A DNA stretch of 50,056 bases, taken from Bacteroidota bacterium. GTDB lineage: Bacteria > Bacteroidota > Bacteroidia > Bacteroidales > CAIXTV01. Shown here in pieces: positions 8,282-50,056 of the stretch (its first letter is position 1; each line of letters begins with the position of its first letter). The translations under genes were made by a program, and so were the position numbers. Where the stretch lies: assembly GCA_037144095.1 (NCBI GenBank), contig JBAWXL010000002.1, positions 1-50,056 on the forward strand, in the 5' to 3' direction. The notes beneath the pieces are model-generated. The model was not told where the DNA came from. It did not search any database and saw only the letters and a program-made list of their open reading frames with translations.

Positions 8282-8647
8282 ATGTTCAAAAGTTTTTCGG
8301 AAATGCCAATTTGGCAAACAGCACATGAGTTATCAATTGACGTATTTAAAAGGACAACGCATTTGCCTCGTTCTGAAGATTATGGATTAACATCGCAAAT
8401 CCGAAGATCAGCTAATAGTGTATCTGCAAATGTAGCTGAAGCTTTTGGAAGAAGCTCAAGTAAAGATAAAAGTAATTTTTACATTTATGCAAGAGGTTCT
8501 GTTACTGAAACTCAGAACCATTTAATTTATGGCTTAGATGTAGGATATTTTGAAAAACAGGGAGTAGAACTACTCTTAAACAAATACAATGTTTTGATTT
8601 ATGATTTAAATAAGGTTCTAAAAGCCCTATCACAACCCCAACCTTAA
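8282..8647 (+). CDS. Four-helix-bundle protein (23S rRNA intervening-sequence protein / Avd family, PF05635-like)
   Basis: 121 aa. Motifs LTSQIRRSANSVSANVAEAFGR and YIYARGSVTETQNHL are typical of the family. The C-terminal SQPQP runs into the hexamer repeat. Confidence 0.8.
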   Translation: MFKSFSEMPIWQTAHELSIDVFKRTTHLPRSEDYGLTSQIRRSANSVSANVAEAFGRSSSKDKSNFYIYARGSVTETQNHLIYGLDVGYFEKQGVELLLNKYNVLIYDLNKVLKALSQPQP

Positions 8648-8675
8648 CCTCAACCTCAACCTTAACCTCAACCTC
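8633..8675. repeat. Right boundary of the cassette: 7 tandem CAACCT/TAACCT hexamers
   Basis: caaccc caacct taacct caacct caacct taacct caacct c. Ends 4 nt before ATG 8680. Confidence 0.85.
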
Positions 8676-8679
8676 TTGC

Positions 8680-9924
8680 ATGACCAAGTTTCAACCCATC
8701 GTCAACTTTATTCGCAAGACCTTTAACTCTCCGAAGGATTTTATTCCTCTTCATGCCCCCGTGTTCTGTGGAAATGAAAAAAAGTATCTGGAGGAATGTA
8801 TTGACACAACTTTCGTTTCCAGCGTAGGTAAATTCGTCGATCGTTTCGAAGCCATGGTTGCTGAATACACAGGTGCAACAAAAGCTGTTGTTTGCGTTAA
8901 TGGCACGAATGCCCTTCATTTAGCCATGCTACTCTTAGGAGTCAAACAGGATGATGAAGTAATCACCCAGCCATTGACTTTTATTGCAACTTGCAATGCC
9001 ATAAGTTATATTGGAGCCCATCCTGTGTTTGTTGACGTTGATTTAGACACATTAGGTATGTCGCCAAAAGCTTTAAGAAAGTGGCTTGCCGAAAACGTAG
9101 AATTTAAGAATCAGGCTGAGGATAAGGTTAATAATTTCCAATCTCAACCACAACCTCAACCTCAATCTCAACCTCAGCCTCAACCTCAGCCTCAACCTCA
9201 ATCTCAACCTTACAATAAAACCACAGGCAGGCGAATTAAAGCCTGCATTCCAATGCATACTTTCGGGCATCCCTGTCGCATTGATGAGATTGTTGAAATT
9301 TGCAAAGAATATCATATCGAATTAATTGAAGATGCAGCCGAAAGCCTGGGAAGTTTTTATAAAGAAAAGCACACCGGTACATTCGCAAAAATAGCCGCCC
9401 TGAGTTTTAATGGAAACAAAACAATTACAACCGGAGGCGGGGGAATGCTTTTGTTTCAAGACGAAGACTTAGCAAAATCAGCAAAACATCTAACCACACA
9501 AGCCAAAGTTCCCCATCCATGGAATTTCGTTCATGACCAAATTGGCTATAATTATCGCATGCCCAACATAAATGCTGCTTTAGGCTGTGCTCAAATGGAA
9601 CAACTCCCTCAATTTCTCTCAGCCAAACGACAATTAGCTCATCAATACGAACAATTCTTCTCAACCTTAAACTCAACCTCAACCTTTTTCAAAGAACCCC
9701 AAAACGCAAAGTCAAACTATTGGTTAAATGTAATTATTCTAAAGGACAGAGATGAACGTGATGAATTTTTAAAATTCGCCAACGACAATGGAGTAATGAC
9801 TCGTCCTGCCTGGCAATTGATGAATAAATTGCCGATGTTTGTAGATTGTCAATGTGGCGAACTCCCTAATTCAGAATGGTTGGAAGATAGAATTGTAAAC
9901 ATCCCCAGCAGCGCGATAATATGA
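8680..9924 (+). CDS. DegT/DnrJ/EryC1/StrS-family sugar aminotransferase (LegC-like) carrying an in-frame repeat insertion
   Basis: IPLHAPVFCGNEKKYLEECIDTTFVSSVG, LSFNGNKTITTGGGGMLL (PLP Lys region), GYNYRMPNINAALG. The 24-aa QS/QP tract is atypical for the family. Confidence 0.85.
   Translation: MTKFQPIVNFIRKTFNSPKDFIPLHAPVFCGNEKKYLEECIDTTFVSSVGKFVDRFEAMVAEYTGATKAVVCVNGTNALHLAMLLLGVKQDDEVITQPLTFIATCNAISYIGAHPVFVDVDLDTLGMSPKALRKWLAENVEFKNQAEDKVNNFQSQPQPQPQSQPQPQPQPQPQSQPYNKTTGRRIKACIPMHTFGHPCRIDEIVEICKEYHIELIEDAAESLGSFYKEKHTGTFAKIAALSFNGNKTITTGGGGMLLFQDEDLAKSAKHLTTQAKVPHPWNFVHDQIGYNYRMPNINAALGCAQMEQLPQFLSAKRQLAHQYEQFFSTLNSTSTFFKEPQNAKSNYWLNVIILKDRDERDEFLKFANDNGVMTRPAWQLMNKLPMFVDCQCGELPNSEWLEDRIVNIPSSAII
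9139..9210 (+). repeat. 12 tandem hexamers (CAACCT and CAATCT/CAGCCT/CAACCA variants) inside the aminotransferase CDS
   Basis: Read directly. Encodes QSQPQPQPQSQPQPQPQPQPQSQP; the antisense reads (RL)n. An inverted arm GAGGATAAGGTTAA lies at 9118..9131. Confidence 0.95.
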
Positions 9925-11509: not shown

Positions 11510-12560
11510 AATATTAGATTTAACAAAATCAGATATTTGGAACACCTTACTTCAAAAGTTGCCTCCCGAACAACAAGATATTTACTTCACACCCCAATAC
11601 TATTCACTATATGAACAATTAGGCGATGGCAAAGCGCAATGTTTTGTTTATGAAAAAGATAACGAGCTTGCCTTATATCCATTTTTGCTAAATTCAGTAA
11701 ACAACCTTGGCTACGATTTAGATAAACCCTATTCTGATATTCAGGGAGCTTATGGTTACAACGGAATCACCGCCAATTCAAACCGTCCCGAATTCATTTC
11801 TTCTTTTTACAGAGAATTTGATAATTACATTTCACAAAACAATATCATTGCCGAGTTCACACGATTTCATCCCTTGCTAAATAATTATAGATTTTCGCAG
11901 CAGAACATGATGGTTGTTTTTGATAGAAAAACGATGTTTCTTTCTTTGGAAAATAACTACGAAAATATTTTCAAAACCTTTCAAACCACCACCCGAAAAC
12001 AAATCAAACGTTGCAGCCATAAGCATCATCTCGAAGTAGAAATCGTCGAAAACAATACCACTCAAATAGATACATTTTATTCCATTTATCAAGAGGCAAT
12101 GGACAGAGTGCAATCTTCAAAATACTTATACTTCAACACCGAATATTTCAAAAATCTGATACAAAACACCCCTTCTGTTCTGTTTATCGCAACACTCGAA
12201 ACCAAACCCATAGCAGCCATAATCGCATTCTACAATCATACCTACCTCCATGGCCATCTCGGAGGAGCATTAACCGATTATCTCTACACATCTTCCTACA
12301 GTTTGTTATACAGCGAAATGATTAAATTCGGAATCGAAAAAAACTGTAAATATTTTCATGCAGGTGGAGGCACAACCAATCATAATGATGATCCACTTCT
12401 TCAATTTAAACTCAATTTTTCAGCAACCACTGCCGATTTTTATCTGGGTAAAAAAATCCACAACATGCCGATTTATGAAGAAGTGACAAAACAATGGGCA
12501 AAAAGGTATCCCGAAAAAGCAGAAAACTATCAACATTTCATATTGAAATACAGATATTAG
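11496..12560 (+). CDS. FemAB / Acetyltransf_6-like GNAT-fold transferase (possible aminoacyl or acyl transferase acting on an amino sugar)
   Basis: About 350 aa. TRKQIKR, FYSIYQEAMDRV, IAAIIAF...LHGHLGGA and KYFHAGGG resemble FemX/CelD-like proteins. Confidence 0.55.
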   Translation: MANFEILDLTKSDIWNTLLQKLPPEQQDIYFTPQYYSLYEQLGDGKAQCFVYEKDNELALYPFLLNSVNNLGYDLDKPYSDIQGAYGYNGITANSNRPEFISSFYREFDNYISQNNIIAEFTRFHPLLNNYRFSQQNMMVVFDRKTMFLSLENNYENIFKTFQTTTRKQIKRCSHKHHLEVEIVENNTTQIDTFYSIYQEAMDRVQSSKYLYFNTEYFKNLIQNTPSVLFIATLETKPIAAIIAFYNHTYLHGHLGGALTDYLYTSSYSLLYSEMIKFGIEKNCKYFHAGGGTTNHNDDPLLQFKLNFSATTADFYLGKKIHNMPIYEEVTKQWAKRYPEKAENYQHFILKYRY

Positions 12561-12651
12561 CAAAACAAATAAGCTGTTTTTATGTTGAATAAAAACAAAC
12601 AATAAAAAGCAATAGCTCATAAATCATAAAGCCCTCATAAAGTTGGAAACA

Positions 12652-12861
12652 AGCTCCCACATCTCGGAAAAACCCTCCCGCATCCCGGAAAAACCCTTCC
12701 GCATTTCGGAAAAATCCTTCCGAATTTTGGAGAAACCCTTCCGCATTTCGGAAAAACTCATCCGCATTTCGGAAAAACCCTTCAACATGCTGGAAAAACC
12801 TTTCCGCATTTCGGAAAAACTCATCCGCATGCTGGAGAGACCCTTCCGCATGCACTATTTA
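12652..12861. repeat. Array A: 10 tandem 21-bp units, consensus CCCTTCCGCATTTCGGAAAAA
   Basis: Units parsed by hand in exact 21-nt register. Each has a TTCCG-N5-CGGAA dyad and a terminal A5 tract. Intergenic (12560/13151). Confidence 0.95.
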
Positions 12862-12981
12862 ACCATACTTATCAAGGGAAAATATTAAGCTAAATAAAAA
12901 ACGCAAATCTCACAAATTCAAACAAATAAGACTAAAATTAGTTTTTATTTTCATTAATAACAAACATTACACACTTATATT

Positions 12982-12989
12982 TACTTTTG
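12982..12989 (+). promoter_or_regulatory. Candidate -7 box TACTTTTG upstream of module 2
   Basis: TAnnTTTG match about 160 nt upstream of ATG 13151. Motif match only. Confidence 0.3.
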
Positions 12990-13150
12990 TTCCTTCATTA
13001 ATAAGAAACAATAACACAAAGCGAGGAACCACAAAATCATTCTTCAATAAAAGTCACTCAAACACGAAAATTGTTCAACTATAGCTCATTCAAGCATTAT
13101 AATTGTAAAAAAATAGAAATTAATCTATCGCATAAGCCAAACGTAATAAA

Positions 13151-13699
13151 ATGAACAGAGAAATAAAAGCAGATCTCTATCGCTATGGCGGATTAACCGG
13201 CACCAAAGGCTTTCTTCGCGGTCTTCGCATCCCGGGATTCAGATATATGTATCTATTACGAAAAGCCTCAAAGCTTCGAAAATACTCTCCACTGTGGATT
13301 ATATGTATTTATTTAAAAAGAAAATACAGCTATAAATACGGATTTCAAATTCCAACTGCCACTCAAATTGCCGAAGGCTTCTTCATCGGACATTATGGAG
13401 CAATTGTAATTAACGCAAAAGCGAAAATCGGGAAAAATTGCACCATTTCCCCTGGAATCACTATAGGACAAGCCAACCGCGGCAAGCTAAAAGGTTATCC
13501 AACCATAGGCGACAATGTCTGGATCGGAACAAACTCAGTAATAGTTGGGAATGTTAATATAGGATCTAATGTTTTAATTGCCCCAAACTCATTTGTAAAC
13601 ACCGACATTCCCGATCACTCTCTTGTCATCGGAAATCCCTCCAAAATTATTGAAAAACAAAACCCCTGCGAAGGATATATCAATTTTGTATTAGAATAA
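13151..13699 (+). CDS. Hexapeptide-repeat O-acetyltransferase (serine acetyltransferase/EpsC-like)
   Basis: IKADLYRYGG, GFFIGHYGAIVINAKAKIGKNCTISPGITIG, IGDNVWIGTNSVIVGNVNIGSNVLIAPNSFV. Confidence 0.8.
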   Translation: MNREIKADLYRYGGLTGTKGFLRGLRIPGFRYMYLLRKASKLRKYSPLWIICIYLKRKYSYKYGFQIPTATQIAEGFFIGHYGAIVINAKAKIGKNCTISPGITIGQANRGKLKGYPTIGDNVWIGTNSVIVGNVNIGSNVLIAPNSFVNTDIPDHSLVIGNPSKIIEKQNPCEGYINFVLE

Positions 13700-13784
13700 C
13701 AAACCACCACTATAAAAGGATACCCATAATTTTCCTCGAAAAATCAATCAGCACTCCCCGAAACATAAAGCAGTAAAAGAAAAC

Positions 13785-14840
13785 ATGCCTGAAATAAAAA
13801 TTAAGAGACGAATAATTTCCGAAAACACAACACTTCTTGATGCTCTGAAGTTGATGGATTCGACAGGCTTTCGATCTCTATTGGTTTTAAACGCAACTAA
13901 TAAGTTTAAAGGCATTCTTAGTATTGGCGATATCCAAAGAGCCATTATAAAAGACAACAAACTCGAGACACACGTAATAGATATACTCCGAAAAAACCCT
14001 CTTATAGCAAACAATAAAACTCCATTCGAAGAAATTAAAGAAATCATGATTAAATTCCGAATGGAATTTTTACCCATCATTAATTCTGACAATGAAGTAG
14101 AAACTGTTTATTTTTGGGAAGATTTATTTGATATTTATACTCATATTCCGCTAACGCAATTTGATGTTCCGGTAGTAATAATGGCAGGAGGTTTTGGCAC
14201 GCGCTTAAAACCTCTAACCAATGTTTTACCCAAACCTTTAATTCCCATTGGAGAAAAAACAATACTTGAAGATATTTTTGAACGATTTTCAAACCATGGA
14301 TGCAATACTTTTTATGTTTCAGTAAATTATAAAGCAGAATTAATAGAATATTATATTCAAAATCAAAAATTGCCTTATACTATTCACTTTTTCAAAGAAG
14401 AAAAACCTATGGGAACCGCAGGAAGTTTATCTTTGTTAAAAGAACAAATAAATAATACCTTCTTTGTAAGCAATTGCGACATTCTTATTGAACAAGATTA
14501 CTCAGATATATTAGAATACCATCGATCCAATAATAACGAAATTACTATTGTTGCAGCATTAAAGCATTATCCTTTAGCATATGGAACAATTGAAACCGGA
14601 GAAAACGGACGTTTATTAAAGCTTGTGGAAAAACCAGAATTAACCTTCAAAATTAATAGTGGAATGTATATTCTTGAGTCTCATCTTTTAAAAGACATTC
14701 CCGAAAATGAGTTTTTCCATATTACCCAATTAATTGATCAAGTGTTAGACAGAAAAGGAAATGTCGGAGTTTTTCCGGTAAGTCAAAAATCATGGAAAGA
14801 TTTAGGTAGTTGGGAAGAATATCAAAATTATATACAATAA
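13785..14840 (+). CDS. CBS-domain sugar-phosphate nucleotidyltransferase (PtmE-like)
   Basis: N-terminal CBS pair (LLVLNATNKFKGILSIGDIQRA) followed by VVIMAGGFGTRLKPLT..LPKPLIPIG, a nucleotidyltransferase signature. Confidence 0.8.
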   Translation: MPEIKIKRRIISENTTLLDALKLMDSTGFRSLLVLNATNKFKGILSIGDIQRAIIKDNKLETHVIDILRKNPLIANNKTPFEEIKEIMIKFRMEFLPIINSDNEVETVYFWEDLFDIYTHIPLTQFDVPVVIMAGGFGTRLKPLTNVLPKPLIPIGEKTILEDIFERFSNHGCNTFYVSVNYKAELIEYYIQNQKLPYTIHFFKEEKPMGTAGSLSLLKEQINNTFFVSNCDILIEQDYSDILEYHRSNNNEITIVAALKHYPLAYGTIETGENGRLLKLVEKPELTFKINSGMYILESHLLKDIPENEFFHITQLIDQVLDRKGNVGVFPVSQKSWKDLGSWEEYQNYIQ

Positions 14841-23015: not shown

Positions 23016-23156
23016 CATATTAAAAAACTTGAATTTAATTCCTCTAATTTTTTTTAATTCATTTTTATTGATATAAAATGAATATTATTAAAGGATATTC
23101 CCTGAAATAAATTCATTTTATCCGGTTTCGAATAAAAAAAATCCAATTTTATTCTC

Positions 23157-23382
23157 ACAACAGCGAGGTTCATTGTTAAAACAAGAGGGCTTATTGTTAC
23201 GACAGCGAGGTTCATTGTTAAAACAAGAAGGTTTATTGTTACGACAGCGAGGTTCATTGTTAAAACAGGAAGGTTTATTGTTACGACAGCGAGGTTCGTT
23301 GTTAAAACAGGAGGGTTTATTGTTACGACAGCGAGGTTTATTGTTAAAAAAACAAGGATGATTTTCACGATAGCGAGCATAG
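23157..23382. repeat. Array B: about 5.4 tandem 42-bp units (ACGACAGCGAGGTTCATTGTT + AAAACAAGAAGGTTTATTGTT)
   Basis: Parsed by hand. The two 21-nt halves of a unit match at 15/21 positions, so the base period is 21. Intergenic (23015/23586). Confidence 0.95.
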
Positions 23383-34974: not shown

Positions 34975-35142
34975 GGTAGAAACGACATACTCTTACAAGA
35001 ATCTGTCGGTTCTTCTGATAGAAACGACAGGATGGTGCAAAAATCTGTCGTTTCTTCTGGTATAAACGACAGGATGGCGTAAAAATCTGTCAGTTCTTTT
35101 GGTACAAACGACAGGATGGTGCACCATCCTGTCGTTTGTACC
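34975..35142. repeat. Array C: 4 tandem 42-bp units, each a hairpin (AAACGACAG..CTGTCGTTT); the last unit is a perfect 42-nt palindrome
   Basis: Units at 34975, 35017, 35059 and 35101. I checked 35101..35142 (ggtacaaacgacaggatggtgcaccatcctgtcgtttgtacc) base by base and it is fully self-complementary. Confidence 0.95.
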
Positions 35143-43092: not shown

Positions 43093-43983
43093 ATGAACAT
43101 ACTCATCACCGGTGCAACAGGATTACTTGGAATTCAGCTGGCAAACCAACTTGCTGAACAGCATACGATTTATGCTATCGACAGAGACAAGAGCCGTGCG
43201 CCAATGTTGCAGCATCCAGGCATTCAGCTCCTCGATATTGACCTGTTTAACCTCAATCCCGACATTCTTCCCAAGAACATTGACACGGTTTTTTATCTGG
43301 CTCAGTCAAAGCAGTTCAGAGATTTCCCGGGTGGGGCCATGGATATGTTTGCCATTAACGTAAAAGCGCCCCTCAGCATCATTCATTGGGCAGTTGAGCA
43401 GAAGGTTAAGAATTTTTTCTACACTTCTACCGGTGGGGTCTACAAGAATCCGACTGAACCCGTGAAAGAGTTCTTTGATATCAATGCAAATGAGAAGAAT
43501 GGCTTCTATATCGGTAGCAAACTTTCGGCAGAAATACTGCTGAAGAACTATTCTCACTTCTTTGAGAAGTTTGCCATACTGCGTCCCTTCTTTATTTACG
43601 GTCCGCATCAGGATGCTTCGATGTTAATTCCCAGACTTATACAAAGGGTGCAGAAGGGTGAAACTATTTTCCTCGATAGAGAAGAAGGCTTGCGCGTAAA
43701 CCCCATATTTGTGACCGATGCTGCCATGGCGTTCAGCAAGTTGCTACAGATTGAGGGCGAACATCTCTTTAACATCGCCGGAAAGGAAACGCTTTCGCTG
43801 ATGAGTCTATGTAAAATCATCGGTAAGACACTTGGCAAGACACCCATCTTCTCTATTAATGAGCAGATTGCATCCGATTTAATTGCCGATACTTCCCTTA
43901 TGCACCAATTGCTTCATTTTCCCCAAACCGACCTTCAGGAAGGCATTCGATTGACTGCGAAAGCTATGGGGTTGGTGGGTTAA
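43093..43983 (+). CDS. NAD-dependent epimerase/dehydratase/reductase (SDR)
   Basis: ILITGATGLLG Rossmann motif, YIGSKLSAE (YxxxK). Confidence 0.7.
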   Translation: MNILITGATGLLGIQLANQLAEQHTIYAIDRDKSRAPMLQHPGIQLLDIDLFNLNPDILPKNIDTVFYLAQSKQFRDFPGGAMDMFAINVKAPLSIIHWAVEQKVKNFFYTSTGGVYKNPTEPVKEFFDINANEKNGFYIGSKLSAEILLKNYSHFFEKFAILRPFFIYGPHQDASMLIPRLIQRVQKGETIFLDREEGLRVNPIFVTDAAMAFSKLLQIEGEHLFNIAGKETLSLMSLCKIIGKTLGKTPIFSINEQIASDLIADTSLMHQLLHFPQTDLQEGIRLTAKAMGLVG

Positions 43984-44050
43984 TGGAAATGTCGGGGTGA
44001 TGTTTCCTTATTTCACCAAATACTTATATCTGATTAAAAATTTAAAAAAA

Positions 44051-44302
44051 TGGAATTTGCATTCGAAATTTCCCGATGCACATGCGCATTTTCAGAATGC
44101 ACATTCGGAATTTCGGAATGCGCATTCAGAACTCCGGGATGCACATCCTGAATTTCGGGATGTACATCCCGAAAGTTGGAATTTACGTTCGGAATGTTGG
44201 GATGCATATTCAAACGTTCCGCATGTACGTCCAAGATTTTGGGATGTACATCTGAAACTTTCGAATGTGCGTTTTAACATTTGGCATGAAAGTCTGAAAA
44301 CA
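44051..44302. repeat. Array D: 12 tandem 21-bp units, consensus yGGRATGYRCATYCnGAAwTT
   Basis: Parsed by hand in exact register. Unit 6 contains the perfect 16-bp palindrome CGGGATGTACATCCCG (44156..44171) and unit 4 contains GAATGCGCATTC. Lies between convergent genes. Confidence 0.95.
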
Positions 44303-44377
44303 AATAACTATTGAAGATTAGGCAATTAATTATAATGCCCAATTTGCTTTCATTATTGTTGAGTCTTTCACGGTTCA

Positions 44378-46165
44378 CTAATCAATCTTCAACACCGCCA
44401 AAAATGCCGATTGAGGGACTTCCACATTTCCTATCTGTCGCATGCGTTTTTTCCCTTTTTTCTGTTTTTCAAGCAATTTACGCTTACGGGTAATATCTCC
44501 TCCATAACATTTTGAGGTTACATCTTTTCTAACAGCTTTAATGGTTTCGCGGGCAATGATTTTAGCTCCAATAGCTGCCTGAACCGCAATATCAAATTGG
44601 TGTCTCGGAATGAGTTCTCTAAGCTTCGAACAAATTTTTCTGCCAAATTCATAAGAATTATCTGCATGAATCAAGCAGGAAAGCGCATCAACGGGTTCGC
44701 CATTAAGCAATATATCTAATCGCACCAATTTAGCAGGCTGATAACTCGACTGAAAATAGTCGAAAGAAGCATAACCTCGTGAAATGCTTTTAAGTTTATC
44801 GTAAAAATCGAAAACGATTTCGCCCAAAGGAAGTTCGAAAGTGATTTCAATTCTATCAGTTGTAAGATAAACCTGATTTTTCAAAATCCCTCTTTTATCA
44901 ATGCAAAGTTTCATAATTGAACCCACATATTCAGACTTTGTAATAATCTGGGCAATGATATAGGGCTCTTCGATATGATCAATTTTACTGGGATTAGGCA
45001 GATTCAAGGGATTGTGAACGTCGATAGTTTCTCCTTTAGTTGTAATCACCTTATATGAAACGTTAGGAATTGTCGTAATCACATCCATATCGAACTCCCG
45101 GTCGAGACGTTCCTGAATGATATCCATGTGAAGCAAGCCTAAAAATCCACATCTGAAACCAAAGCCCAAAGCAATAGAAGATTCAGGTTCGAATGTTAAT
45201 GACGCATCATTTAATTGTAGTTTTTCAATTGACGAACGAAGCTCTTCGTAATCATCAGCACTCACCGGATAAATACCAGCAAACAACATGGGTTTAACAT
45301 TCTCAAAACCTTCAATAAAATCAGGACATGGATTGTTTACATGCGTGACCGTATCGCCAACTTTCACTTCGCGCGAAACTTTGATTCCTGAAATAATATA
45401 ACCCACATCTCCGGCATATAAAACGTCTTTAGCTTCGGGTTTCAGTTTTAAAACTCCAATTTCGTCTGCATTATATTCTTTTCCTGTTGCAACAAATTTC
45501 ACCAAATCGTTTTTATGAATCTGCCCGTTGAAAATTCTGAAATAAGCAATAATTCCGCGAAATGAATTAAAAACCGAATCAAAAATTAACGCTTGCAAGG
45601 GAGCATTAGGATCTCCGGATGGCGCAGGAATCCGATTAATGATATGATCAATAATCTCAGGTATTCCAAATCCGGTTTTAGCACTTGCTTCTAAAATATC
45701 GTCCCTTTTACAACCTAATAAATCAACAATTTGATCTTTCACTTCATCAGGCATGGCGTTTTCCATGTCCATTTTATTTAAAACCGGGATTATTTCCAGA
45801 TTGTTTTCTACTGCCAGATACAAATTTGAAATGGTTTGAGCCTGAATACCCTGAGTGGCATCAATTACCAATAAAGCTCCTTCACAAGCAGCAATAGACC
45901 GTGAAACTTCATAAGAAAAATCGACATGTCCGGGGGTGTCAATTAAATTCAATACATAAGGTTTGCCCTCATGAATATATTCCATCTGAATGGCATGACT
46001 CTTAATAGTGATGCCTCTTTCGCGTTCAAGGTCCATATCATCAAGTACCTGATCTTGTTGTTCTCTCTCGTTGATGGTTCCGGTATATTCAAGTAAACGG
46101 TCAGCAAGTGTGCTTTTGCCATGATCAATATGAGCAATAATACAAAAATTTCGAATGTTTTCCAT
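44378..46165 (-). CDS. lepA: Translation elongation factor 4
   Basis: [37 protein letters not shown] and C-terminal [22 protein letters not shown]. Full-length LepA. The ATG giving MENIRNF is preferred over the upstream TTG at 46174. Confidence 0.95.
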
Positions 46166-46287
46166 AGGCTGCAAAATTAATATAAAAAATCACAATGAGA
46201 GAAGCAACCCTTTGATTATTTTTTTCGTCTAAGCTGTATATTGAATTATTTATTATAACTTCGCATAATCATTTAAAAACAAAAATA

Positions 46288-49558: not shown

Positions 49559-49640
49559 AGCAATAGGCGGCAAAAGTAATAAAAATATTTAAAATACAAA
49601 GAAAATATTTTTTTTCTACAATTAATGATGCAGAAAAGAG

Positions 49641-49960
49641 GTTTAGCTGTTTAGATAACTAGACTTTTAGCTGTTTAGACATTTAGACTTTTAGGAAGAA
49701 GCTCCAAACCTACCAGGTTTCCAAAACCTGTTAGGTTTTTTTAAAAAGGTTGAAGGCTATTAGGCTGTAGACTGAAGTAAGCTAATAGACTTTTAGCTGT
49801 TTAGTCATTTAGGCTTTTAGGAAGAAGCCCCAAACCTACCAGGTTTCCAAAACCTGTTAGGTTTTTTTAAAAGACTGAAGGCTATTAGGCTGTAGACTGA
49901 AGGAGGCTAATAGACTTTTAGCTGTTTAGACTTTTAGGCTTTTAGGAAGAAGCCACAAAC
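49641..49960. repeat. About 2.4 tandem copies of a 125-126-bp unit containing TTTAG-rich short repeats and two AAACCT..AGGTTT hairpins
   Basis: Copies start at 49660, 49786 and 49911. Hairpins in copy 1: AAACCTaccAGGTTT (49706..49720) and AAAACCTgttAGGTTTT plus T-run (49723..49742). Confidence 0.9.
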
Positions 49961-49974
49961 ACTACACTCTTTGG

Positions 49975-50056
49975 AATTTGAAATTTGAAATTTGGGTCTT
50001 TGGACTTCTTTACTATTAACCCAATAACCTATTAACTTAATAACCAATAATTATCA
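49975..50056. repeat. Short-period repeats at the window edge: AATTTGA x3, then an 8-nt-period TATTAACC/CAATAACC tract
   Basis: 49975..49995 holds three heptamers. 50014..50053 holds five related octamers. Truncated by the window end. Confidence 0.6.

What the first reader, a model, noticed from the sequence alone, without database searches (positions are those of the whole stretch)
44051..44302. Array D: twelve operator-like palindromes spaced exactly 21 bp apart between convergent genes
- The unit consensus is yGGRATGYRCATYCnGAAwTT.
- The best units are true palindromes: CGGGATGTACATCCCG (16 bp, 44156..44171) and GAATGCGCATTC (12 bp within 44114..44134).
- The pattern resembles binding sites for a dimeric helix-turn-helix-type protein, repeated on one face of the helix about 12 times.
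- Its location is unusual for operators. It lies between the 3' end of the last glycan gene (43983) and the 3' end of lepA (44378).
- This suggests nucleation of a nucleoprotein filament, a boundary or insulator, or a roadblock terminator for convergent transcription.
- No regulator gene is visible in the window.
Basis: partly seen in the sequence, partly recalled or inferred. Interest (0 to 1): 0.62.

Follow-up and report, generated by a model that had tools for sequence, protein, structure and literature searches.

The report
Period-locked 21-bp intergenic tandem repeat
Array D is a real run of twelve 21-base repeats, but it is one of about 290 such arrays in this genome that share the period and not the sequence, so it belongs to a published, still unexplained class of bacterial repeats and is not a dedicated operator site.

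Summary
There are twelve units in a strict 21-bp register at 44051-44302, with no indels. The palindromic core is perfect at 44156-44171. The array lies between the stop codons of an epimerase gene and lepA.

The operator and roadblock reading is not supported.
- The genome (4.7 Mb, uncultured Bacteroidales-like) holds 468 arrays of period 21/42/63 bp. Of these, 287 are at least 105 bp long. They are mostly intergenic, non-coding and unrelated in sequence.
- Array length has a mode of 210-272 bp; D is 252 bp.
- Arrays occur about equally often in convergent (11%) and divergent (14%) spacers.
- The D palindrome recurs only in one sibling array (C16:10660-10911).
- One congener has a sequence-unrelated 21-bp array after lepA, and another has none.
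- Palindromes are enriched in the class but show no compensatory maintenance and no strand bias.

D matches the constant-size (20-21 nt), variable-sequence tandem repeats of Subirana and Messeguer, whose function is unknown. This scan has met the class before, including in this genome.

My best guess is a DNA-level element that depends on helical phase and is kept uniform by slippage or unequal recombination. A neutral satellite is the main rival.

Two orphan paralog families keep arrays at a fixed side despite differing unit sequences. That is the best lead for a function.

The parts
44051..44302 (.). Array D: 12 units of 21 bp, consensus TGGAATGTACATTCGAAATTT
   Evidence: Units in register with no indel; self-identity 0.62 at lag 21. 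TRF core 44060-44211.
44156..44171 (.). Best unit core, the perfect 16-bp palindrome CGGGATGTACATCCCG
   Evidence: Pair counts over all units: 78.6% paired in register against 19-54% when slid.
44116..44127 (.). Perfect 12-bp palindrome GAATGCGCATTC (A-T variant of the stem)
   Evidence: Columns 4/13 vary as A-T in 5 units, G-C in 3 and G-T in 1.
44147..44159 (.). Second, weaker dyad centred on the AT-rich spacer (CCTGAATTTCGGG); it makes the array nearly strand-symmetric
   Evidence: Read from the sequence. Overlapping 64-nt inverted arms, 72% complementary (pair I1). The D consensus matches the sibling consensus at 16 of 21 in both orientations.
43985..44007 (+). Terminator-like hairpin plus T-rich tail directly after the epimerase stop, outside the array
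   Evidence: It is the only terminator-like site in 43700-44700, and 1.0 such site is expected by chance.
43093..43983 (+). Last gene of the glycan locus, an NAD-dependent epimerase/dehydratase
   Evidence: Pfam PF01370, E 2.9e-29.
44378..46174 (-). lepA (EF4). Homology to both congeners ends exactly at its stop codon
   Evidence: Pfam GTP_EFTU and LepA_C. G001 and G002 matches start at window 44379.
12660..12853 (.). Array A, same class (period 21/63), unrelated units
23148..23377 (.). Array B, same class (period 42), unrelated units
34996..35123 (.). Array C, same class (period 42, hairpin units)

Best explanation
Array D is a non-coding, period-locked tandem repeat. It belongs to the class of bacterial 'constant-size (20-21 nt), variable-sequence' repeats.

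Shown:
- D shares its 21-bp period and its length of about 250 bp with roughly 290 other arrays in this genome, and with many in one congener. Their unit sequences fall into about 170 unrelated families.
- The palindrome is a trait of D's own small family (two loci). It is not a conserved protein-recognition site.

Inferred:
- A founder 21-mer, here a short palindrome plus an AT-rich spacer, was amplified and is kept uniform by replication slippage or unequal recombination. Units then decay without repair of the dyad.
- The only property common to the class is a whole number of helical turns (21, 42, 63 bp). If the array does anything, it most likely acts as DNA, through phase and not through sequence. 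It puts the same surface or bend on one face of the helix every two turns over about 250 bp. That could serve as a platform for cooperative binding of a non-specific nucleoid protein, or as a structural spacer between transcription units.
- D itself probably has no role specific to lepA or to the glycan genes.
For: Class membership.
- TRF on the whole genome gives 457 rows of period 21 against 36 and 33 for periods 20 and 22. There are 222 rows at period 42 and 82 at period 63.
- These merge into 468 non-redundant arrays covering 1.6% of the genome. Of these, 287 are at least 105 bp and are mostly intergenic.
- Of 255 arrays of at least 126 bp, 151 have a plain 21-bp period and 97 a 42-bp period.
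- The arrays fall into 118 single-locus families and 50 multi-locus families.

Non-coding.
- Variation shows no codon phase (0.443 observed, 0.451 null).
- ORFs running through arrays look spurious and have no Pfam hit.

Length. The mode is 210-272 bp and D is 252 bp. Congener G001 shows the same mode.

Context is not specific. Arrays sit in 4.7% of co-directional, 13.9% of divergent and 11.1% of convergent spacers. They lie mid-spacer and rarely within 75 bp of a gene.

Lineage-specific and fast-changing.
- G001 has 47 arrays of at least 105 bp in 1.15 Mb. G002 has about 3 in 465 kb. None were found in 700 kb of more distant Bacteroidota lepA loci.
- The lepA-proximal arrays of G000 and G001 are unrelated, with 11 of 21 unit positions matching.
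- Arrays A-C are absent from the homologous glycan loci of both congeners.

Hints of retention.
- Two orphan paralog families keep an array on a fixed side although the units differ. FamC has 5 of 5 arrays 178-257 bp upstream. FamD has 5 of 5 arrays 44-253 bp downstream.
- 11 of 24 G001 array spacers have a G000 array at the orthologous flank, against 18 of 68 controls (p 0.07).

Literature. The class, its two-turn period and the nucleoid-protein idea are described in PMC8161180.
Against: - No binding, transcription or phenotype data exist.
- A wedge-model curvature estimate gives 62 degrees per 126 bp for arrays and 37-43 degrees for non-repeat DNA. Unit-permuted periodic controls reach 60 degrees, so arrays barely exceed them. 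D itself is predicted to be rather straight at 36 degrees (wedge parameters recalled from memory).
- G002 manages with about ten times fewer arrays.
- Positional conservation between species is weak (p 0.07), and about 9 of 12 co-located pairs share no units.
- No k-mer is shared by most arrays, whereas a characteristic short sequence was reported for Bacillus.
- All of this fits a neutral satellite equally well.
Confidence: 0.5

Rival explanations
1. D is a neutral or selfish satellite. The arrays are by-products of slippage or unequal recombination that accumulate in free intergenic DNA of this lineage. The 21-bp period and the length of about 250 bp reflect a bias of the mutational or repair machinery, or of short-read assembly, and not a function.
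For: - Turnover is rapid and sequence is not conserved.
- Arrays are nearly absent from congener G002.
- Arrays sit mid-spacer, away from gene ends.
- Dyads decay without compensation: 0.800 of stem cells form Watson-Crick pairs, against 0.798 in the null.
- There is no strand bias relative to flanking genes.
- 69 arrays end at contig ends, so the upper length limit may be an assembly effect.
Against: - The period is very sharp (457 rows at 21 against 36 and 33 at 20 and 22).
- There is a dip at 105-170 bp below the length mode, which assembly limits do not explain.
- Arrays fill about a tenth of intergenic DNA in a bacterial genome.
- Arrays stay on a fixed side of paralogs that are only 22-73% identical.
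- The same period is reported in distant phyla (PMC8161180).
Confidence: 0.3
2. D acts at the RNA level. It is transcribed as the 3' UTR of lepA or of the glycan operon. Its string of mini-hairpins, or one long hairpin, would block 3' exonucleases, end transcription, or stop convergent read-through.
For: - Both strands fold far better than shuffles (-99.9 and -88.6 kcal/mol; z -7.9 and -6.1).
- D starts 67 and 75 bp after the two stop codons.
- G-T pairs occur in the stem.
- Transcription of Bacillus satellites is reported in PMC8625621.
Against: - Strong folding on both strands is the expected result for a DNA palindrome.
- Class-wide, G.U-type and A.C-type mismatches are symmetric (270 against 302). 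On the sense strand against the antisense strand they are 123 against 112.
- Two thirds of arrays have no more stem than chance.
- Units lack U-tracts, and a separate terminator-like hairpin precedes D.
- The sibling array lies in a divergent promoter region.
- No Rfam family reaches its threshold.
Confidence: 0.1
3. D is a specific operator or centromere-like array. A dimeric DNA-binding protein recognises GGATGYRCATCC and polymerises on the twelve in-phase sites, as SopB does on sopC or Rep proteins do on iterons.
For: - Twelve in-phase dyads; the best is a perfect 16-mer.
- A sibling array with the same core exists at C16:10660-10911.
- There is weak covariation at two stem positions (31 of 500 shuffles reach the observed score).
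Against: - No isolated sites occur elsewhere.
- Neither array has an HTH or partition gene next to it. D is flanked by the epimerase and LepA. The sibling is flanked by two ORFs without Pfam hits, with SecDF and an OmpA-family protein next out.
- The core is not conserved in the congeners.
- About 170 unrelated unit families would need as many cognate proteins.
- Most D units are degenerate.
Confidence: 0.07

Closest known systems
Constant-size (20-21 nt), variable-sequence non-coding tandem repeats of bacteria (Subirana and Messeguer, J Bacteriol 2020, e00229-20; Int J Mol Sci 2021, PMC8161180)
   Same: - The period of 21 bp equals two helical turns.
- The repeats are non-coding.
- One genome holds many families with the same period and unrelated sequences.
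- The families are species-specific and very unevenly spread among related species.
- The function is unknown.
   Different: - This case is in an uncultured Bacteroidales-like lineage. The paper I could read covers Bacillus and, for other groups, names only Cyanobacteria and Actinobacteria 'etc.'. The J Bacteriol paper was not held.
- No short sequence is shared by most arrays here, unlike the B. weihaiensis example.
- A large share of arrays here have a 42-bp period whose halves are only 38% alike.
- I did not see the length mode of about 250 bp or the gene-side linkage mentioned in the sections I read.
Plasmid centromere and iteron arrays (F sopC: 12 tandem 43-bp units, each with a 16-bp inverted repeat bound by SopB; iterons of about 22 bp). 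Recalled from general knowledge, not tested here.
   Same: About a dozen direct repeats, each with a dyad core, placed on one face of the helix.
   Different: - Those arrays occur once per replicon, next to their par or rep genes, and keep a conserved motif.
- D has no such neighbour.
- D's motif is not conserved in the congeners.
- D is one of hundreds of arrays with unrelated units.
REP/BIME extragenic palindromes of enterobacteria
   Same: Intergenic, palindromic, often at the 3' ends of genes or between convergent genes, and present in hundreds of copies.
   Different: - REPs share one consensus per family and are dispersed or clustered with variable linkers. They are not strict head-to-tail arrays of 21 bp.
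- Y1 (RAYT/IS200-type) transposase genes number two in each of the three congeners, whatever the array load.
STRR heptamer repeats of cyanobacteria and other short intergenic tandem repeats
   Same: Intergenic tandem arrays of many unrelated units with one shared period.
   Different: - Their period is 7 nt.
- The 21-bp units here have no internal 7- or 14-bp periodicity.
- This genome also has separate 7- and 14-bp arrays.

Membership tests
Constant-size 20-21 nt variable-sequence tandem repeats (Subirana and Messeguer) | Head-to-tail repeats with a constant unit of 20-21 nt | tested here: met
   12 units of exactly 21 bp with no indel. Genome-wide there are 457 TRF rows at period 21 against 36 and 33 at periods 20 and 22.
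Constant-size 20-21 nt variable-sequence tandem repeats (Subirana and Messeguer) | Not part of a protein-coding gene | tested here: met
   D lies between two stop codons. The 105-aa ORF through D has no Pfam hit. Class-wide, variation shows no codon phase.
Constant-size 20-21 nt variable-sequence tandem repeats (Subirana and Messeguer) | [quoted passage not shown] | tested here: met
   255 arrays of at least 126 bp fall into 118 single-locus and 50 multi-locus families. D's family has two loci.
Constant-size 20-21 nt variable-sequence tandem repeats (Subirana and Messeguer) | Families are species-specific, with very uneven abundance among related species | tested here: met
   G001 is array-rich but its units are mostly unrelated. 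G002 has about ten times fewer arrays. More distant relatives have none in the sampled DNA.
Constant-size 20-21 nt variable-sequence tandem repeats (Subirana and Messeguer) | A characteristic short sequence present in most arrays of a species (reported for some Bacillus) | tested here: not met
   The most enriched 4- to 6-mers occur in 15% of arrays or fewer. The paper reports this as a frequent feature, not as part of the definition.
Operator, centromere or iteron array with a cognate dimeric binding protein | Recognition motif conserved at the orthologous site in related genomes | tested here: not met
   G001 has an unrelated array after lepA and G002 has none. No D-type units occur in G002, and G001 has only a loosely similar array.
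Operator, centromere or iteron array with a cognate dimeric binding protein | Gene for the binding protein (regulator, ParB/SopB or Rep) next to the array | tested here: not met
   D is flanked by the epimerase and LepA. The sibling array is flanked by two ORFs without Pfam hits, with SecDF and an OmpA-family protein next out.
Operator, centromere or iteron array with a cognate dimeric binding protein | Specific protein binding to the repeat | not testable with these tools
   This needs a pull-down, EMSA or ChIP.
Intrinsic terminator or roadblock between convergent genes | GC-rich hairpin followed by a U-tract, or a location restricted to 3' ends | tested here: not met
   The scan finds no terminator-like site inside D and one before it at 43985-44007. 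The class is as frequent in divergent spacers as in convergent ones. The sibling array lies in a divergent spacer.
REP/BIME | Many dispersed copies of one palindromic consensus, linked to a RAYT transposase | tested here: not met
   Units are unrelated between arrays. The D core is confined to two loci. Y1 transposase gene counts are equal in array-rich and array-poor congeners.
Structured RNA family (Rfam) | Match at the gathering score to a curated covariance model | tested here: not met
   The only hit in the window is a tRNA. Permissive-threshold hits on D are generic hairpin models far below their cut-offs.

The most novel reading that the evidence does not exclude
The 21/42-bp arrays are functional cis elements that are read by geometry and not by sequence. 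A phase-dependent DNA platform of about 250 bp would be retained at fixed positions next to particular genes while its sequence is free to turn over. The evidence for retention is the fixed side of the arrays in the famC and famD paralogs and downstream of lepA in two species. D would then be a boundary element between the glycan locus and lepA.
Probability: 0.2. Interest if true: 0.75.

Novelty: new member of a known kind. Interest (0 to 1): 0.35.

Why it matters
Array D by itself is an ordinary member of a repeat class that is already catalogued, and this scan has met the class several times, including in this genome. The class itself is still unexplained. It fills about a tenth of the intergenic DNA here and keeps an exact two-turn period and a preferred length, yet has no common sequence. 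This genus gives a natural comparison: two array-rich species and one array-poor species. It also has orphan gene families that always carry an array on the same side. Together these make a phase-reading mechanism testable by pull-downs with in-phase and out-of-phase arrays, by deletions and by Term-seq.

Tried and rejected
- **Coding heptad repeat.** Rejected: variation shows no codon phase, and the ORFs through arrays look spurious with no Pfam hit.
- **Selected hairpins (RNA or DNA).** Palindromes are enriched in founder units: a stem of at least 5 bp occurs in 34% of arrays against 14% expected. There is no compensatory maintenance and no G.U asymmetry. D alone shows only weak covariation.
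- **Intrinsic curvature as the selected property.** Arrays are no more curved than unit-permuted periodic controls, and D is predicted to be straight (model parameters from memory).
- **A shared short motif.** None found.
- **MITE or other mobile-element origin of D.** D has no bounding inverted repeats and unique flanks. A dispersed repeat of about 100 bp (about 35 copies) found in many other array flanks is not next to D.
- **Internal 7- or 10.5-bp sub-period.** Absent.
- **Reverse-transcriptase or RAYT-driven origin.** G000 has no RVT_1 gene, and Y1 transposase counts are equal in all three congeners.
- **Arrays mark synteny breaks.** Homology to both congeners does end at the lepA stop. 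Genome-wide the test is underpowered: 3 broken against 1 collinear for arrays, and 14 against 20 for controls (p 0.23).
- **Positional conservation between species.** An early count of 5 of 7 shrank to 11 of 24 against 18 of 68 (p 0.07).
- **An array-binding protein encoded next to arrays.** The famC model (pLDDT 87.6) is a long-helix bundle plus a CnaB/transthyretin-like sandwich, with no DNA-binding fold.
- **Strain-level comparison.** Two metagenome scans and one exact-protein look-up found nothing.

Full report
**1. The observation**

- Window 44051-44302 cut every 21 bp gives twelve units with no indel. The consensus is TGGAATGTACATTCGAAATTT, and units match it at 12-19 of 21 positions.
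- Self-identity is 0.62 at lag 21 and 0.59-0.60 at lags 42, 63 and 84. At lags 15-29 it is 0.10-0.33. TRF reports the better-kept core, 44060-44211.
- The two quoted palindromes are exact: 44156-44171 and 44116-44127.
- Pairing columns 1-7 with 10-16 gives 78.6% standard pairs, against 19-54% when the partner is slid.
- A second, weaker dyad sits on the AT-rich spacer (44147-44159). The array therefore reads much the same on both strands.
- The neighbours are an NAD-dependent epimerase gene ending at 43983 (+) and lepA ending at 44378 (-).

**2. D is not a singular object**

- The window's own genome has 4.70 Mb, 36% GC and 471 contigs. Its LepA is about 80% identical to Lentimicrobium and Bacteroidales MAGs.
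- TRF finds 457 rows of period 21, against 36 at period 20 and 33 at period 22. There are also 222 rows at period 42, 82 at 63 and 36 at 84.
- Merged, these are 468 arrays covering 1.6% of the genome. Of them, 287 are at least 105 bp, and nearly all are intergenic or inside short ORFs made of the repeat itself.
- Of 255 arrays of at least 126 bp, 151 have a plain 21-bp period. Another 97 have a 42-bp period whose halves are only 38% alike.
- There is no internal 7- or 10.5-bp sub-period.
- Unit sequences fall into 118 single-locus and 50 multi-locus families.
- Array length is bimodal. There are many stubs of 2-3 units and a distinct mode at 210-272 bp; D is 252 bp.
- The window itself holds three more arrays, A, B and C.

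**3. Tests of what the arrays are**

- *Coding?* No. Variation among units is not concentrated in one codon phase (0.443 observed, 0.451 null). The ORF through D has no Pfam hit.
- *Hairpins?*
  - Consensus units carry a stem of at least 5 bp in 34% of arrays, against 14% of shuffles. Palindromes are therefore enriched but far from universal.
  - Within arrays the dyads are not maintained. The paired fraction is 0.800 against 0.798 when partners are shuffled among units.
  - G.U-type and A.C-type mismatches are symmetric at 270 against 302. On the sense strand against the antisense strand they are 123 against 112.
  - D alone shows weak covariation at two stem columns (31 of 500 shuffles reach it). 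Descent of sub-families or hairpin-templated repair could produce this.
  - D folds strongly as RNA on both strands (z -7.9 and -6.1). That is expected of any DNA palindrome.
- *Strand bias relative to flanking genes?* None is convincing.
- *Shared motif?* None; the best k-mers occur in 15% of arrays or fewer.
- *Curvature?* A wedge model, with parameters recalled from memory, predicts 62 degrees per 126 bp for arrays and 37-43 degrees for non-repeat DNA. Periodic controls with permuted units give 60 degrees, and D gives only 36 degrees.
- *Context?* Arrays sit in 4.7% of co-directional, 13.9% of divergent and 11.1% of convergent spacers. They lie mid-spacer and rarely within 75 bp of a gene. 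A convergent location is therefore not unusual for the class.

**4. The operator idea**

- GGRATGYRCATYCC occurs only in D.
- The looser core recurs only in one sibling array of twelve units at C16:10660-10911. Its consensus matches D at 16 of 21 positions, and there is no unit-by-unit orthology.
- The sibling lies in a divergent spacer. It is flanked by two ORFs without Pfam hits, with SecDF and an OmpA-family gene next out.
- A terminator-like hairpin with a T-rich tail (43985-44007) already follows the epimerase gene, outside D.
- No Rfam family matches.

**5. Relatives**

- Two genomes of the same genus are held: G001 (LepA 96% identical) and G002 (92%).
- DNA homology of both to the window starts exactly at the lepA stop. 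The glycan locus lies on other contigs in both genomes, and there it has no arrays at the places of A, B and C.
- Downstream of lepA, G001 has a 21-bp array of about 380 bp that starts about 72 bp after the stop. Its units are unrelated to D's (11 of 21 positions match) and have their own near-palindromic core, AAATCCTAGGATTT.
- G002 has no array after lepA and goes straight into an ECF sigma factor gene.
- In 1.15 Mb of G001 there are 47 arrays of at least 105 bp, with the same period spectrum and the same length mode.
- In 465 kb of G002 there are about three. In 700 kb around lepA of 80 other Bacteroidota there are none of note.
- Position test: 11 of 24 G001 array spacers have a G000 array at the orthologous flank, against 18 of 68 long array-free spacers (p 0.07).
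- Only about 3 of 12 co-located pairs share units.
- In one pair the arrays are unrelated although the flank is 94% identical.
- G000 contigs end near the orthologue of G001 arrays more often than near controls (8 of 12 against 10 of 44 regions with both flanks mapped). This hints at unassembled arrays. It was not formally tested.

**6. Gene linkage (outside D)**

- Genes with type IX secretion tails are enriched next to arrays. 28 of 109 have one (p 1e-6), and 19 of those are on the 3' side.
- Orphan family famC (about 317 aa, 22-73% identical) has a 42-bp-period array 178-257 bp upstream in 5 of 5 paralogs.
- Orphan family famD (about 255 aa) has an array 44-253 bp downstream in 5 of 5 paralogs. 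The unit sequences differ between paralogs.
- Neither family has Pfam or PHROG hits.
- FamC has only 7 relatives among 5.8 billion proteins.
- The famC model (pLDDT 87.6) is a long-helix bundle plus a CnaB/transthyretin-like sandwich, and shows no DNA-binding fold.
- This is the best sign that arrays are retained at fixed places while their sequence is free.

**7. Comparison with what is known**

- Subirana and Messeguer describe tandem repeats of constant size (20-21 nt, and 52 nt in Firmicutes) and variable sequence.
- These repeats are non-coding and form species-specific families of the same length. The authors note that 21 nt is two helical turns. They suggest a nucleoid protein that polymerises on the repeat, or transcription into small RNA (PMC8161180; PMC8625621).
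- The J Bacteriol 2020 paper was not held.
- D meets the defining features. The optional 'characteristic short sequence' is not met.
- Earlier notes of this scan report the same class in this genome and in others.

**8. Verdict**

- D is a real, typical member of a known but unexplained class.
- The reading as a specific operator, roadblock or terminator is not supported.
- My preferred mechanism is inferred, not shown. D would be a DNA-level, phase-dependent element kept uniform by slippage or unequal recombination.
- A neutral satellite remains a strong rival.

Noticed in passing
G000 contigs: C125:143-1096(-), C19:152-1108(-), C104:629-1579(+), C82:12583-13569(-), C25:16831-17817(+): Orphan family 'famC' (about 317 aa, 22-73% identical; only 7 relatives in 5.8 billion proteins). 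All five paralogs have a 205-368 bp array of 42-bp period 178-257 bp upstream of the start, and the units mostly differ. The AF2 model (pLDDT 87.6) shows long helices plus a CnaB/transthyretin-like sandwich and no DNA-binding fold.
   Followed up: partly
G000 contigs: C116:7963-8730(+), C81:316-1080(+), C48:378-1145(-), C134:2843-3607(+), C183:7932-8741(-): Orphan family 'famD' (about 255 aa). All five paralogs have a 216-260 bp 21/42-bp array 44-253 bp after the stop codon, with unrelated units. There are no Pfam or PHROG hits.
   Followed up: partly
G000, genome-wide: Arrays with a period that is a multiple of 21 have a length mode of 210-272 bp (10-13 units) and a dip at 105-170 bp. Congener G001 shows the same mode. 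69 arrays touch contig ends, so longer arrays may be unassembled.
   Followed up: partly
G000, genome-wide: Genes with type IX secretion C-terminal sorting domains are enriched next to arrays. 28 of 109 have one (Fisher p 1e-6), mostly on their 3' side.
   Followed up: partly
window 12560-13815: Array A and the hexapeptide acetyltransferase gene that follows it (13151-13699) correspond to only about 24 bp in congener G002 (C4:40783-40759). The whole segment is therefore an insertion or deletion between species.
   Followed up: partly
window 49640-50056: A 125-bp tandem repeat built from 8-bp TTTAGACT/TTTAGGCT words. Short pieces match dozens of G001 contigs at 85-100% identity, so it is a dispersed repeat family distinct from the 21-bp arrays.
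   Followed up: no
G000 C5:40700-40800 and many array flanks: A dispersed element of about 100 bp (about 35 copies) links 132 of 459 array flanks by similarity. It is not present next to array D.
   Followed up: partly
G000 genome-wide; G002 locus L147:11046-11153 and 12152-12345: There are separate populations of 7- and 14-bp tandem repeats (131 and 132 TRF rows in G000). Long heptamer arrays are also present in array-poor G002.
   Followed up: no
window 8633-8675 and 9139-9210: CAACCT hexamer tracts lie inside or beside sugar-modification genes. Other notes of this scan already flagged them.
   Followed up: no
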